Of a DNA stretch of 44,227 nucleotides, positions 39,001 to 44,227 are shown one piece after another. The position numbers were made by a program. Source of the stretch: Escherichia phage ASU11; sequence record ON416862.2; one strand, given 5' to 3'. The first letter of the stretch is position 1, and the number at the start of each line of letters is the position of its first letter.

Positions 39001-42000
39001 GCTATTGGACAAGATGATGGTTGTGGCGGACAACTAAAGCGCATTAAACAACTACACAGAAGACCAGGTGGAAAATTGATTATCCGCAGTTACAACAGTG
39101 ACGAATACCCAGATGAAGAAACCAGTATTGATAAGGTTGATATTATCGGGCGTTTATTCTGGTACTCAGTTTTGCTTTGAATCAAAAAGGAAATATTTTT
39201 TATTAAATATCAATAAGGTAACAAAAATCACCCAAAAAAATAGAACTTGCTATTGCCATAATTTATAGTAGGTTCTATTATGCTCTCATTCCAAATAGAT
39301 GGAGTTAATGAGATGAGGGCAAAACCGACTCTGACTTTTAATGGCTTTTCCATGCACCCACTGGATGCGCTAAAAAATACCGCCGTTCTTTTTGAAGCTG
39401 GATATTTATTAGCTACATCAAATAACCATGAATACTGTGAAATTGGCGATACCATAGTTGCTTTGGCCACTGATTACGCCTTCGAAGTAAAAAACGCAAT
39501 TTTTTATTCAAGACAAGATATTGCTCCTGAAAAACAGCCTGAATACATGGTTAACCTTAGCACCCAACGTGAAGCCTGCGGTTTGACGACCACCGAACTG
39601 GCCAGACTGCTCGATCTTGACGAAGAGATTATCCTGCAATGGGAGAGTGGAGAATACGAACCAACCATCAGCATGCTAATCCCCATGGCAAATGTCCTGG
39701 GATGCGATCCTCTTTCTCTGCTGAGTGAAAAAAATAGCGCTGCTGCTGTTACCGTAAATCAGCCAGACATCCAGGAGGAAAGCATTGGCACACGTATAGA
39801 AGCCGCACGTAAAAAAGTTGGACTGACAGAAGCAGACCTGGCACGCATGATTCACACCTACAACGACCCCATAAACGACTGGGAGTGCGGTATCTGCGAA
39901 GTCCCCGCAAGCCAGATCATTCCACTGGCTAATGCGCTTGGTTGCGATCCGATGTGGCTGTTAACTGGTGGGCCTATTGCCCGGGCTTCATAAGATACCA
40001 TGGGGCAATAACATCGCCGCGCTTTTCTACAAGATGAGAGCGAATTTCACGAAGTTCTTCAACTGAGGAGCCGAAAGCCAGAGTGACATAATCGCCACTT
40101 CTGCCATCAAGATACATACGGACATTTCTCTCAACCATTGCGGAAACAGTCTCAATATGAAAACACTTCTGAGACTCACTATATAACAGAACATACATGT
40201 CAGCTGAGGAAGCCATGAAAAAGTTCGAAAACATAACTGTTCTCCATGTTGATAACTTTGGTTATACAAACCAGGAACTTCTCCCGGAGGTTGTAAAGGC
40301 AATAGATGTTGCCGATATAGTGATTAGAGGAAAGAGAATTGTCAAAAACAGGCTCGCATGCACTTCAGGAGCAATGACAGAAACAACCTCACAGCAAGAT
40401 AATTACGAAGGCATTTGTCTGGAGCCTGATTCATTTGCGGTAAATGTTTATCATTTATTGCATGCAACACAGGTATTACATATGTCCAGTAATCACGAAA
40501 CAAAAGTACTTGGCAGCGAAATTCTGAATTTTGCATGTGAATATGCAAAAGCTGCTGCCGAAAAAGAATTAGCGCAATAACAATAAATATTCCCTGAATG
40601 TTTATTACGGTTTTATCGCCGGGGATTGTTGCAACCTTTATTCGCAGGAGATTATGTTATGACCTTCCTGAAACATAAGGCATCGTATAAAACTGCCTGC
40701 CTCATTGCACAACATGGAGATTCTTATCTTCATATAGCCAACCTGTATTTGCGCAAGGCTTATGGGAGATAAAATAATGGAGACATCAGCACGAAATAAA
40801 ATGCAGAATGAGCCTGAGCAGGGGGGGGTAATACACGAAAAAGTAAGAGTGTTGCTAACCATTGAAAATGGGAAAGTAATTTACTCAAAACATCTGTTGG
40901 ATAATGAATTCGTTGGCTGCATGGATACATTTCTGTGGATGGCAAAAAGAGCGGGTTACACGATTATTCCACCAGCAAAGGAGCAAACATTATGAATCAT
41001 TCAGAGTTCCGACCAGAAGTTACGCCACATGGCATAAAAATTGGCAATACAACCATTGATTATGTTGAGGCCGTACAGCGGCTTAATGATGGTGAATACG
41101 ATTATCCAAATTCTCACGGTTTAAGAATTATGCAATGTATTGCTGAAGCCGATGATGCCGGATTACTGGGACGATTTTCAGTCGATATGAAGATTGCTCA
41201 ATGGCGATGGCTGTATGTGACGACGTTTATAAATGAAGAAGAAGGCAAGAACGGCACCATTGATATCCCTAACGATAATGGAACTACAGATCGCGCAGTT
41301 ATTTACAAGGGTAAACATGGTTGCCTGAGTATCTACCCAGGGCCACTTCGCATTGCCCTGCAAAACCATGTCGAATGGAGATTCATTGAAAAATATGGCG
41401 AAGCTGAAGGCATGGGGCGAGTTCTGTTTCTCTATCAAAAAATGCTCATCGCAGATCCTGATAATGGCTTCATTGTCTCTGCTATGGGACGAGAAGGGCT
41501 TGAACTTCTTCTGGATGAAATGATTCACGATCTGAATACTCATGGTATGCCAGAAACACCATTGGAACATTAAACATGTCAAATCAGAATAAAATTAATG
41601 TATTTCAGGTTGAATCAAAACATAAAACACCTGTGATAAAACACGTTCGCCGCCATACACTCATCTATACGCCAGAAGAGTTTATGGCAATGCCAATGAT
41701 AAAGAAGTTTATTCGTGATAATCCCGATCACATTGCTATAGATAAACATAACGGAGAAATAATGTTATCACGCGAACTTGCCGAAATTTACTGTAACGTG
41801 AATAACGGTAAAAAATTGAAAAAGGCAATCCGAAAAAAATCAGGAGTAACAAAATGAATAGCATCGAGACACAATGTTCCTCATCTGAAGTTATGAACTA
41901 TGACCCGAATCTGACGTTGTACGGACGCATGGCAAAACAAACTGTTCTATTAACTTTCGGGCTATGGGAATACCGCGAAACATTCGAAGTTTCTGTCGGC

Positions 42001-44227
42001 GGCAATCTGACCGGACTGGATGTTATCAGTTGCGCCATTGAAAGCCTGTACGCAACGCTGCCTTATGAAGAAGTCGAGGATGAGCGCGATATCATAGCCA
42101 CCATTAATATCGGCGGCATGGAATGCAAGGATGAAAACCTGAACGGAGAACTCTGGCTTGCCGGGATGCTTATCTCGGCAGAAATCATCAGTATTGAACC
42201 CGCTACAAACATACGACTCTGAAGTTCTCACAACTCAGGGAGCAGGAGAAAAAATGTTCGCTTTGATTAATCAGGGGCAACTGTATACCGATAGTGCTGG
42301 CTACCCGATAAAAATTATTCGCTGCATAAACAACACTGTGTTGTACAGAAGAATGGATGGGCGAACACAGTCGGTAAAAATAAACGATTTTAATGAACTG
42401 TTTGAACGAATCGATCACCAGGAGTACCGCAAAATTCTGGCGGGCACTGAGCAGGAAATGCACCTGAAAAAATTACGCGCAATGCAACGGAGGTGATACA
42501 TGCATACGGCTTTTGAGTTCTGGGTTCGCAAGACATTCGGCAATCGCTACGACCTGACCCGTGATGTCGACGGCTTCTACTGCCGTGAAGTTGTGAAACG
42601 AATGTTTGACGTGTGGTGCCACTGCCGTGGATGAAAGTTTTATGAGGTTGGCATGCAGACAATCATCTATCAGATAACCCCCAGCAAATGGTGTACGGAG
42701 AGAGTCCTTATTGCATCAACAGGGCTAAAGCCCGGCACCATCGAGCGGGCTAGAAGAAAGTCATGGATGCAGGGAAAAGAATACCGCCATTACGCTGTAG
42801 AAGGTGATCCTGGGCACTACAGTGAATGCCTGTACAACATCGAAGAAATTATGCGATGGATCGAAAACCAGAAACAACCAGGTGCCAAAAATGCAAGTTC
42901 CGGTTAACCTGTTAATGCTCCTGGACGTCTGGGAGGTTTAATGAGTAACGCATCATACCCGACAGGCGTTGAAAACCATGGAGGATCACTCCGTATATGG
43001 TTTCACTATAATGGCAAACGTGTCAGAGAAAACCTCGGTGTTCCTGACACCGCCAAAAACCGGAAGATCGCAGGTGAACTTCGCACTTCCGTTTGTTTTG
43101 CAATCAGAATGGGGAGTTTCGACTACGCCGCGCAGTTCCCTAATTCCCCTAACCTGAAACACTTTGGTCTGGGAAAAAGAGAGATAACCGTTAAGGCACT
43201 TTCGGAAAAATGGTTGGACCTTAAGAAAATTGAGATAGGAAGTAATGCATTCAGTCGGTATCAATCCGTGGTGAGAAACATGCTTCCTCGCATAGGGGAA
43301 AAACGTCTTGCTTCGTCGGTAACAAAGGAAGATTTACTGTTTATCAGGAAAGATTTGTTAACCGGGTATCATAATCTCTCTAACGGAAAAACAACGCCGA
43401 TTAAAGGGAGGTCAGTAGTTACGGTTAATTACTACATGACGACAATTGCAGGAATGTTTCAATTTGCGGCTGATAACGGCTATATCGTGTCAAACCCATT
43501 TAACGGCCTGACACCATTAAAGAGATCCAGAACAGAACCAGATCCGCTCACACGAGACGAATTTATTCGTTTTATTGATGCCTGTCACCATCAACAAACG
43601 AAAAACCTGTGGTCCTTAGCAGTATACACAGGCATTCGTCACGGTGAGCTAATATCTCTCGCTTGGGAGGATATTGATTTAAAAGCTAAAACAATGACTA
43701 TCCGTCGTAATTATACAAAACTCGGGGAGTTCACTCTACCAAAAACAGAAGCGGGAACTGATCGTGTTATTCATCTTGTTCAACCAGCTGTTGATGCCCT
43801 GAAAAGCCAGGCTGAAATGACAAGACTTGGCCCTCAGTATCAAATTGACGTCAAGCTTCGGGAGTTCGGTCGCACTGCACGCCATGAATGCACGTTTGTT
43901 TTTAATCCGCAACTGGTGAAAAAATGCCAGCAAGTCGGTCACCACTATAAAGCAGATTCCATCAGAGATTCCTGGGCATCTGCATTAAGGCGAGCAGGAC
44001 TGCGGCACAGAAAAGCCTATCAGTCCAGGCATACTTATGCCTGTTGGGCATTATCGGCAGGAGCGAATCCAAGCTTCATAGCAAACCAAATGGGCCATGC
44101 AAATGCACAAATGGTATTCAACGTTTACGGAGCATGGATGAAAGATAACAATATCGGGCAAATAGAACTACTCAATAAGCAGTTGACGGAGAGTGTCCCA
44201 TACATGCCCCATAGAGCCAGACTCTGA

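What the first reader, a model, noticed from the sequence alone, without database searches (positions are those of the whole stretch)
40992..42222. Three translationally coupled genes of unknown function
The 193-aa, 93-aa and 122-aa ORFs follow each other with a 2-nt gap and an ATGA overlap, each with a plausible RBS. Tight coupling suggests the products act together. I recognise none of them.
Basis: seen in the sequence. Interest (0 to 1): 0.55.

Follow-up and report, generated by a model that had tools for sequence, protein, structure and literature searches.

The report
Unrelated accessory genes, Stx2 prophage operon
The three tightly packed genes are real, but they are separate, swappable accessory genes of unknown function in the repressor-controlled early operon of a Shiga-toxin prophage, not a three-part system.

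Summary
ORFs 40992-41573 (193 aa), 41576-41857 (93 aa) and 41854-42222 (122 aa) lie on the + strand with a 2-nt gap and an ATGA overlap. All three are under purifying selection.

They are an arbitrary slice of a longer train of about nine + strand genes with gaps of at most 33 nt, ending in xis and int. This train sits in an Stx2-converting lambdoid E. coli prophage. A promoter flanked by two copies of the operator palindrome AATAG-N6-CTATT lies upstream.

The interpretation that coupling means joint action is not supported for the trio:
- **Uneven spread.** Among 5426 complete E. coli genomes the genes occur in 81, 14 and 204.
- **Swappable slots.** In most relatives a 35-aa membrane peptide fills the 93-aa slot, and a cassette of a 62-aa membrane protein plus an SPFH lipoprotein follows it.
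- **Non-specific coupling.** The 93-aa gene overlaps four unrelated downstream genes in different phages.
- **Independent travel.** The 122-aa gene (DUF5406) sits in Pseudomonas and Stutzerimonas prophages without the other two.

One weak exception remains. The 93-aa gene nearly always follows a member of the 193-aa family or a faintly related 143-174-aa family.

None of the three has a known function, and the two modelled (193 aa, 122 aa) have no solved fold relative. This is ordinary phage dark matter of modest interest.

The parts
39239..39281 (+). Putative repressor-controlled early-left (pL-like) promoter. It reads TTGCCA-17-TATTAT at 39253-39281, flanked and overlapped by two operator-like palindromes of the form AATAG-N6-CTATT at 39239-39254 and 39264-39279.
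   Evidence: The promoter scan is. The palindrome occurs only 4 times in the 44-kb window: two copies here and two in the cro/cI intergenic region (38357, 38415). Chance expectation is 0.68, and 0 of 100 shuffles reach 4. That these sites work as operators is inferred.
40659..40772 (+). Unannotated 37-aa basic ORF (MTFLKHKASYKTACLIAQHGDSYLHIANLYLRKAYGR). It ends 4 nt before the next gene.
   Evidence: Similar peptides are encoded at the equivalent position in Citrobacter and in another enterobacterial locus, L006 and probably L009. An AGGAG lies 9 nt upstream. There is no PHROG or Pfam hit.
40777..40995 (+). 72-aa gene (77 aa if read from 40762) of family phrog_340, function unknown. Its stop overlaps the 193-aa start as ATGA.
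   Evidence: The PHROG hit has E 1.4e-24. The gene lies directly upstream of the 193-aa gene in every E. coli locus examined, but is detached from it or absent in other genera.
40992..41573 (+). 193-aa acidic protein (pI 4.9, net charge -13) of family phrog_1515. Its alpha/beta fold has no known relative.
41576..41857 (+). 93-aa strongly basic protein (pI 10.0, net charge +10) with a lysine-rich C-terminus. GC is 33.7%, against 43-47% in its neighbours. It matches no family in any library and behaves as an optional cassette.
   Evidence: There are no Pfam, PHROG, PADLOC or PDB hits. Only 11 homologous clusters exist. It is present in 14 of 5426 E. coli genomes. Composition is and dN/dS of 0.16-0.35.
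41854..42222 (+). 122-aa very acidic protein (pI 4.05, net charge -14.5) belonging to DUF5406 (PF17400) and phrog_3409.
42254..42496 (+). 80-aa DUF4222 protein, in the same Pfam family as the prophage regulator RgdR. It is the next gene in the same operon.
   Evidence: The Pfam hit has E 2.4e-15. RgdR is described as a DUF4222 protein in PMC10877973 and PMC3378721.
42500..42634 (+). 44-aa ORF conserved just upstream of xis.
   Evidence: PGAP calls it. It is conserved next to xis in most E. coli loci and in two Citrobacter loci (L006, L008), and is present in L009 with no detectable xis beside it.
42653..42907 (+). Excisionase (DUF1233, annotated xisR).
   Evidence: The Pfam hit has E 2e-29.
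42941..44227 (+). Tyrosine integrase at the end of the operon and of the prophage.
   Evidence: PGAP annotates it, and records in the phage collection name it intR.

Best explanation
The three ORFs are three independent, non-essential accessory genes. They sit in the early-left operon of an Stx2-converting lambdoid prophage of E. coli, the counterpart of the pL operon of phage lambda.

**Transcription (inferred).** The operon is read rightward on the + strand from a promoter at about 39253-39281. That promoter is bracketed by two copies of the same palindromic operator found between cI and cro. The genes would therefore be silent in the lysogen and switched on when the S24-type repressor (38434-39180) is inactivated, or on infection. 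One polycistronic message would run through at least nine small genes into xis and int.

**Coupling.** The ATGA overlaps and the 2-nt gap are the usual compact packing of phage operons. Termination-reinitiation probably matters most for the 93-aa gene, which has a poor Shine-Dalgarno sequence (inferred). The overlaps do not mark a specific partnership.

**Modularity (shown).** Each gene is a cassette that is gained, lost or replaced on its own.

**What each protein does (inferred, low confidence).** By position and by analogy with the lambda and Stx-phage exo-xis region and with RgdR, I expect small soluble modulators of host or phage processes early after induction. The two very acidic proteins (193 aa and DUF5406) most likely bind and block a host or phage protein. 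The very basic 93-aa protein most likely binds nucleic acid or an acidic partner.
For: **Context.**
- A cI-like S24 repressor, a double-HTH protein, then a train of small genes ending in xis and int, all on the + strand.
- The window also carries stx2A and stx2B, Q, replication, lysis and tail genes.

**Promoter and operators.**
- AATAG-N6-CTATT occurs 4 times in 44 kb: two copies at cro/cI and two around the predicted promoter.
- Chance expectation is 0.68, and 0 of 100 shuffles reach 4.
- No terminator-like or promoter-like site lies on the + strand between 40700 and 42950.

**Independence of the three genes.**
- Genome counts are 81, 14 and 204 of 5426.
- In 89 loci that carry a 193-aa homologue, about 9 have the window's order and about 57 have a 35-aa membrane peptide in the 93-aa slot, followed by a 62-aa membrane protein, the SPFH lipoprotein and DUF5406. 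Six have the 93-aa gene and then the SPFH cassette. About 5 lack DUF5406. Most loci from other genera (L004-L011) lack both the 93-aa gene and DUF5406; Rahnella L003 keeps the 93-aa gene.
- The stop of the 93-aa gene overlaps the start of DUF5406 (window), of the 62-aa membrane-protein gene (L018), of Rha/ORF6N antirepressor-like genes (L092, L104-L108) and of a 112-aa gene (L003).
- DUF5406 lies in Pseudomonas and Stutzerimonas prophage early-left operons with unrelated neighbours.
- The 93-aa gene has GC of 33.7%, against 43-47% in its neighbours.

**Coupling is generic.** The PGAP annotation of the related prophage shows 11 four-base overlaps.

**Precedent for function.** Exo-xis region genes of lambda and Stx phages alter lysogenisation and induction (abstracts of PMC3824215, PMC4195576 and PMC10789677, listed). 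The DUF4222 protein RgdR of prophage CP-933C regulates type III secretion and motility (PMC3378721).
Against: - No transcript data were available, so co-transcription and repressor control rest on sequence patterns only.
- The 93-aa gene is almost always found directly after a 193-aa-family gene or a faintly related 143-174-aa gene. Those two proteins carry opposite charge. A real pairwise interaction is therefore not excluded.
- The 72-aa gene is always ATGA-coupled to the 193-aa gene within E. coli.
- The neighbourhood census is biased: it used the best 80 of 267 viral hits and many near-identical prophages.
- The proposed roles of the proteins are guesses from charge and position.
Confidence: 0.7

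Rival explanations
1. Two of the genes form a functional pair. The acidic 193-aa protein (or its distant 143-174-aa cousin) and the basic 93-aa protein would act together, for example as an effector with an optional regulator or adaptor. DUF5406 would be unrelated to them.
For: - In every lineage of the 93-aa gene examined but one, the gene directly upstream (2-10 nt away) belongs to the 193-aa family or to the phrog_37204-like family.
- The 193-aa family holds that position in E. coli, Citrobacter sp. S-77 and Rahnella L003, where the two proteins are 52% and 59% identical to the window's.
- The phrog_37204-like family of 143-174 aa holds it in Pantoea L092 and in L104, L105, L107, L108, L110 and L111.
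- That second family scores weakly but consistently against the C-terminal half of a clean 61-sequence HMM of the 193-aa family: most members score 7-13 bits, L110 scores under 1 bit, and the noise starts at about 3 bits. A broader 124-sequence HMM gives 16.9 bits.
- Both families end in ...PV(I)H.
- Net charges are -13 and +10.
- Sources.
Against: - Most copies of the 193-aa gene lack the 93-aa gene: 14 against 81 E. coli genomes. A 35-aa membrane peptide fills the slot instead.
- In L106 the 93-aa gene follows an unrelated 128-aa gene of the phrog_1886 family.
- Gene order along the whole operon is conserved in these phages, so adjacency may be inherited synteny rather than a functional link.
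- The remote homology is near the detection limit. The A2-only HMM gives only 3.7 bits and hhalign gives a probability below 1%.
Confidence: 0.22
2. One reading: the three proteins form one complex or one three-component system, such as a defence, anti-defence or toxin-antitoxin-like module.
For: - The three genes show tight translational coupling.
- Their charges alternate acidic, basic, acidic.
- The same four-gene order (65/70 aa, 193 aa, 93 aa, DUF5406) is present in Citrobacter sp. S-77.
Against: - Occurrence is unequal, at 81, 14 and 204 genomes.
- The genes are shuffled as cassettes.
- DUF5406 and the 193-aa family occur alone in other genera.
- No PADLOC model matches any of the three.
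Confidence: 0.05
3. One or more of the genes is a lysogen-expressed 'moron' with its own promoter. It would benefit the host, for example through superinfection exclusion, phage defence or virulence regulation, and would not be an early lytic function.
For: - The 93-aa cassette has a low GC content.
- The alternative cassette at this position encodes a lipoprotein with an SPFH domain and small membrane proteins, which is typical of morons.
- The neighbouring DUF4222 family includes RgdR, which acts in the lysogen.
- The host strains are EHEC/STEC, and the prophage carries effector genes.
Against: - No promoter-like site lies on the + strand inside 40700-42950, and no terminator isolates any of the genes.
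- There are no PADLOC hits.
- The three proteins have no hydrophobic segment obvious by eye, whereas the alternative peptides at this slot clearly do. No formal signal-peptide or transmembrane prediction was run.
Confidence: 0.1

Closest known systems
Exo-xis region of phage lambda and Stx phages (orf60a, orf61, orf63, orf73, ea22)
   Same: - A run of small, tightly packed genes of largely unknown function.
- They lie just upstream of xis-int in the early-left operon and are expressed very early.
- They are dispensable but modulate lysogenisation and prophage induction (PMC3824215, PMC4195576, PMC10789677, PMC8614690).
   Different: - No sequence relationship was found. None of the window's genes hits Ead_Ea22 or any other named family.
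- This phage has no exo, bet or gam genes next to the region.
- The resemblance is in position and kind, not in membership.
Early-left region of phage phiP27 (genes L03-L08)
   Same: - Sequence relatives of the window's genes: L06 is 90% identical to the 193-aa protein, L04/L03 correspond to DUF5406, L07 to the 72-aa gene and L08 to the gene at 40197-40580.
- Gene order is the same and the region ends in xis-int.
   Different: - phiP27 lacks the 93-aa gene.
- In its place it has a 35-aa membrane peptide, followed by a 62-aa membrane protein and the SPFH-domain lipoprotein L05.
- All of these genes are annotated 'unknown' there too.
RgdR (DUF4222) of cryptic prophage CP-933C, EHEC O157:H7
   Same: A small protein encoded in a prophage's int-proximal accessory region. 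The window's next gene (42254-42496) belongs to the same Pfam family. RgdR shows that genes of this region can act as regulators of host virulence and motility (PMC3378721, PMC10877973).
   Different: RgdR is not one of the three genes in the finding. The window's DUF4222 protein is 80 aa rather than 99 aa, and I saw no RGD tripeptide in it.
Pfam DUF5406 (PF17400), PHROG 3409 and PHROG 1515
   Same: The 122-aa and 193-aa proteins are clear members of these families.
   Different: These families are only sequence catalogues. No function, structure or paper is attached to them; DUF5406 is mentioned in 0 papers.

Membership tests
DUF5406 (PF17400) | Score above Pfam's gathering threshold over the full domain | tested here: met
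   The 122-aa protein scores 76.6 bits against a cut-off of 25 and covers profile positions 1-116 of 116. Homologues carry PF17400 in the precomputed annotation.
PHROG 1515 (phage protein, unknown function) | Full-length match to the family profile | tested here: met
   The 193-aa protein matches with E 1.1e-90, residues 1-193 against profile positions 12-203 of 203.
Any described protein family, for the 93-aa protein | A significant hit in Pfam, PHROGs, NCBIfam, PADLOC or PDB sequences | tested here: not met
   No hits. The best NCBIfam score is 16.7 bits against a cut-off of 400. The profile search against the PDB gives a best E of 0.37.
Obligate multi-gene system (operon whose parts co-occur) | The component genes co-occur and keep their adjacency across lineages | tested here: not met
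   The genes occur in 81, 14 and 204 of 5426 genomes. Related loci show at least 5 different architectures downstream of the 193-aa gene. DUF5406 occurs alone in Pseudomonas and Stutzerimonas prophages.
Known anti-phage defence or toxin-antitoxin systems | A match to a PADLOC model, or to a toxin or antitoxin family or fold | tested here: not met
Lambdoid early-left (pL-type) operon | Same strand as cI and xis-int, downstream of cI, with a promoter flanked by repressor operators also present at cro/cI | tested here: met
   The operator palindrome occurs 4 times, only at these two sites, with 0 of 100 shuffles reaching that count. The promoter-like site is at 39253-39281. Repressor binding itself is not testable here.
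Lambdoid early-left (pL-type) operon | A single early transcript reading through to xis-int | not testable with these tools
   The only evidence is the absence of terminator-like and promoter-like sites on the + strand between 40700 and 42950.
Lambda exo-xis region genes | Sequence homology to orf60a, orf61, orf63, orf73 or ea22 | tested here: not met
   No Ead_Ea22 or related Pfam or PHROG hit was found for any gene from 40197 to 42634. The resemblance is positional only.

The most novel reading that the evidence does not exclude
The 193-aa protein has a confidently predicted fold with no relative in the PDB or BFVD. Two other uncharacterised families in the same operons share a faint C-terminal domain with it: the 143-174-aa phrog_37204-like family and the 115-123-aa phrog_1737 family.

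Together these would define a new superfamily of early phage proteins in Enterobacterales. The basic 93-aa protein would be a dedicated optional partner of that superfamily. The pair would act on a host target, for example to tune induction of Stx prophages or to counter a host defence.
Probability: 0.15. Interest if true: 0.55.

Novelty: new member of a known kind. Interest (0 to 1): 0.25.

Why it matters
The window is an Stx2-converting prophage. In such phages, early-left genes next to xis-int can shift the balance between lysogeny and induction, and so affect toxin release. If any of these three proteins did that, or blocked a host defence, it would be useful to know.

As it stands, the result is mainly a caution. 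Overlapping start and stop codons in a phage operon do not show that the products work together. These genes are catalogued but uncharacterised dark matter.

Tried and rejected
**Sequence-family searches.** Pfam, PHROGs, NCBIfam and PADLOC gave only 'unknown function' families: DUF5406, phrog_1515, phrog_3409 and phrog_340. Single-sequence and profile searches of PDB sequences gave nothing below E 0.25.

**Structure.**
- The AF2 models are good: pLDDT 89.8 for the 193-aa protein and 80.9 for DUF5406.
- Foldseek against BFVD gave nothing below E 0.1.
- The afdb50 library was unavailable.

**Deep profile search for the 193-aa family.** A search of 1.84 billion representatives found 130 hits, none with a Pfam domain among those checked. 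The longer 'fusion' proteins were checked and also had none.

**Literature.** DUF5406 appears in 0 papers. The five RefSeq accessions appear in 0 papers.

**Ideas considered and rejected.**
- A three-component system, rejected on the census.
- A longer GTG start at 40935 for the 193-aa gene, as annotated for phiP27 L06. I rejected it because all homologues align from the ATG at 40992, which has a strong AAGGAG, and because the extension would overlap the upstream gene.

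Full report
**1. The observation**

The three ORFs exist as described. The first runs from ATG 40992 to TAA 41573 (193 aa). 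The second starts at ATG 41576, two bases after that stop, and ends at TGA 41857 (93 aa). The third starts at ATG 41854, inside an ATGA overlap with that stop, and ends at 42222 (122 aa). NCBI's PGAP annotation of an identical stretch in E. coli O145:NM FWSEC0002 calls the same genes.

The ribosome-binding sites are good for two of the three genes. AAGGAG lies 8 nt before the 193-aa start and CAGGAG 7 nt before the 122-aa start. The 93-aa gene has only a weak GGAA.

All three are under purifying selection against homologues:

| Gene | dN/dS |
|---|---|
| 193 aa | about 0.15-0.2 |
| 93 aa | 0.16-0.35 |
| 122 aa | 0.3-0.4 |

They are therefore real genes.

A 72-aa gene (40777-40995) overlaps the 193-aa start by ATGA. 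A conserved but unannotated 37-aa ORF (40659-40772) ends 4 nt before that gene. Downstream come DUF4222 (31-nt gap), a 44-aa ORF (3 nt), xis (18 nt) and int (33 nt).

In the PGAP annotation of the closely related prophage I count 11 four-base overlaps among roughly 36 junctions between adjacent same-strand genes. An ATGA junction is routine here.

**2. Where it sits**

The window is an Stx2-converting lambdoid prophage of E. coli. It carries:
- stx2A (28332-29291, -) and stx2B (28051-28320, -);
- three tRNA genes;
- Q, replication, lysis, head and tail genes;
- an NleC-type effector gene.

The right-hand 8.9 kb is 99.7% identical to a prophage of strain FWSEC0002. The 2.25 kb around the finding is 100% identical in five complete genomes.

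The finding lies between the immunity region and xis-int, on the same strand as the S24-type cI-like repressor (38434-39180), the excisionase and the integrase. This is the position of the lambda pL operon.

A sigma-70-like promoter lies at 39253-39281. It is bracketed by two copies of the palindrome AATAG-N6-CTATT. With at most one mismatch, the only other two copies in the 44-kb window lie in the cro/cI intergenic region. That makes four sites against 0.68 expected by chance, and none of 100 shuffles reach four. This is the OR/OL pattern of lambdoid phages.

No terminator-like or promoter-like site lies on the + strand between 40700 and 42950. I therefore infer, without transcript data, that the genes are part of a repressor-controlled early message that reads on into xis and int.

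**3. What the proteins are**

| Protein | Family | Homologues | Structure | pI (net charge) |
|---|---|---|---|---|
| 93 aa | none in Pfam, PHROGs, NCBIfam, PADLOC or PDB | 11 clusters | not modelled | 10.0 (+10) |

The 93-aa protein has a lysine-rich tail, and its gene has 33.7% GC against 43-47% in its neighbours.

No paper mentions DUF5406 or the RefSeq accessions of these proteins.

**4. Do they act together?**

I collected 89 loci that encode a 193-aa homologue and mapped the neighbours by tblastn.

| Gene content after the 193-aa gene | Loci |
|---|---|
| 93 aa, then DUF5406 (the window's order, preceded by the 72-aa gene) | about 9 |
| 35-aa membrane peptide, 62-aa membrane protein ATGA-coupled to the SPFH-domain lipoprotein (phiP27 L05), then DUF5406 | about 57 |
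| 93 aa, then the SPFH cassette, then DUF5406 | 6 |
| no DUF5406 at all | about 5 |
| other genera (Yersinia, Citrobacter, Phytobacter, Raoultella, Providencia): neither the 93-aa gene nor DUF5406; Rha/ORF6N antirepressor-like genes or a 177-195-aa gene follow instead | 8 (L004-L011) |

Counts in 5426 complete E. coli genomes at megablast sensitivity are 81 for the 193-aa gene, 14 for the 93-aa gene and 204 for DUF5406.

In Pseudomonas and Stutzerimonas prophages DUF5406 again sits in the early-left operon, directly beside int in Pseudomonas and a few genes downstream of the repressor in Stutzerimonas, but with wholly different neighbours.

The most telling point concerns the overlap itself. 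The stop codon of the 93-aa gene overlaps the start codon of whatever gene follows it:
- DUF5406 in the window;
- the 62-aa membrane-protein gene in L018;
- Rha/ORF6N genes in L092 and L104-L108;
- a 112-aa gene in Rahnella L003.

The overlap is a property of how these cassettes are joined. It is not a sign of a partnership. The three-gene unit is not supported.

**5. What survives**

A looser link between the 193-aa family and the 93-aa gene remains possible. I recovered further 93-aa homologues at 49-59% identity. In E. coli, Citrobacter sp. S-77 and Rahnella the gene directly upstream is a 193-aa homologue. In Pantoea L092 and in L104, L105, L107, L108, L110 and L111 it is a 143-174-aa protein of the phrog_37204 type.

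That second family scores weakly but consistently against the C-terminal half of a clean 61-sequence HMM of the 193-aa family. Most members score 7-13 bits, L110 scores under 1 bit, and noise begins at about 3 bits. A broader HMM gives 16.9 bits. It also ends in the same ...PVIH motif.

A third family, of 115-123 aa (phrog_1737), hits the same part of the HMM, with up to 27 bits in the same operons. Only L106 breaks the pattern, with a phrog_1886 gene upstream.

Three things count against a functional pair. Most copies of the 193-aa gene lack the 93-aa gene. Gene order along the whole operon is conserved in these phages. The remote homology is near the detection limit: hhalign gives a probability below 1%, and the narrow HMM gives 3.7 bits. 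I give the pair model about 0.2.

**6. Mechanism I commit to**

Shown:
- The genes are real.
- They lie in a tightly packed same-strand train ending in xis-int.
- They are independently mobile cassettes.
- None has a known family function, and the two modelled have no solved fold relative.

Inferred:
- They are transcribed from the operator-flanked promoter at about 39253-39281 when the repressor is inactivated.
- Translation of the poorly initiated 93-aa gene depends on ribosomes terminating at the 193-aa stop two bases upstream.
- Each product acts on its own as a small early modulator.

By charge and position I guess that the two acidic proteins bind and inhibit a host or phage protein. I guess that the basic 93-aa protein binds nucleic acid or an acidic partner.

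The nearest experimental precedents are positional. Exo-xis region genes of lambda and Stx phages alter lysogenisation and induction (PMC3824215, PMC4195576, PMC10789677; abstracts). The DUF4222 regulator RgdR of prophage CP-933C is a family relative of the very next gene in this operon (PMC3378721, PMC10877973).

**7. Verdict**

| Question | Answer |
|---|---|
| Observation | confirmed |
| 'Unknown function' | confirmed |
| 'Coupled, therefore acting together' | not supported for the trio; weakly open for the 193-aa and 93-aa pair |
| Novelty | ordinary phage accessory genes that are catalogued but uncharacterised; new members of a known kind |
| Interest | about 0.25 |

The Stx2 context, the orphan fold and the possible small superfamily raise the interest slightly.

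Noticed in passing
window 28051-29291 (-): The prophage carries Shiga toxin 2 genes. There is a 319-aa RIP-family A subunit (28332-29291) and an 89-aa B subunit (28051-28320). From memory, the B-subunit residues (NEND...VKVAGKEYW) and the A-subunit tail (...SQSLYTTGE) look like an Stx2c/2d-type variant. I did not check this against references.
   Followed up: partly
window 37010-37198 (-): Two Rfam matches above the gathering score lie inside or next to the ash/Rha gene region of the early-right operon. They are C4 antisense RNA (37010-37097, 85 bits) and the isrK Hfq-binding sRNA (37122-37198, 57.6 bits). This hints at a P1/P7-type or IsrK-type RNA-controlled antirepressor or anti-Q circuit.
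   Followed up: no
window 38357-38372, 38415-38430, 39239-39254, 39264-39279: The palindrome AATAG-N6-CTATT occurs four times in the window and only at these positions. Two copies lie between cro and cI, and two bracket a promoter-like site downstream of cI. This is an OR/OL-like operator layout.
   Followed up: yes
window 40659-40772 (+): A 37-aa basic ORF (MTFLKHKASYKTACLIAQHGDSYLHIANLYLRKAYGR) has an AGGAG 9 nt upstream and is not annotated by PGAP. Similar peptides are encoded at the equivalent place in a Citrobacter locus (L006) and in one other enterobacterial locus, probably L009.
   Followed up: partly
window 42254-42496 (+): The gene after the trio is a DUF4222 protein, in the same Pfam family as RgdR. 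RgdR is a prophage-encoded activator of the LEE type III secretion system and a repressor of motility in EHEC O157:H7. The host lineage here is also EHEC/STEC.
   Followed up: partly
window 904-1890 (-): A 328-aa Peptidase_M85 protein (an NleC-type zinc protease that degrades NF-kB p65, E 1e-112) is encoded beyond the tail-fibre genes. It is type III effector cargo on the same prophage.
   Followed up: no
L002 (phiP27) 4890-6033; L018 6860-7874: The commonest alternative cassette at the 93-aa slot consists of a 35-aa and a 62-aa membrane peptide plus an SPFH-domain lipoprotein (phiP27 L05). The 62-aa gene is ATGA-coupled to the lipoprotein gene. It looks like a membrane-acting moron, possibly for superinfection exclusion.
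   Followed up: partly
L003 5768-5989, L004 1262-1480, L005 5773-5991, L092 4261-4482, L108 3261-3482: In related early-left operons of Rahnella, Yersinia, Pantoea and others, a 72-73-aa ParE_like (PF24732) gene lies one or two genes upstream of the 193-aa-family gene. No obvious antitoxin gene is annotated beside it. The gene is absent from this window.
   Followed up: no
L003 5397-5768, L105 3123-3470, L092 3920-4264: A 115-123-aa family (phrog_1737) in the same operons scores up to 27 bits against the C-terminal half of the 193-aa family HMM. This suggests a shared small domain among several uncharacterised early proteins.
   Followed up: partly
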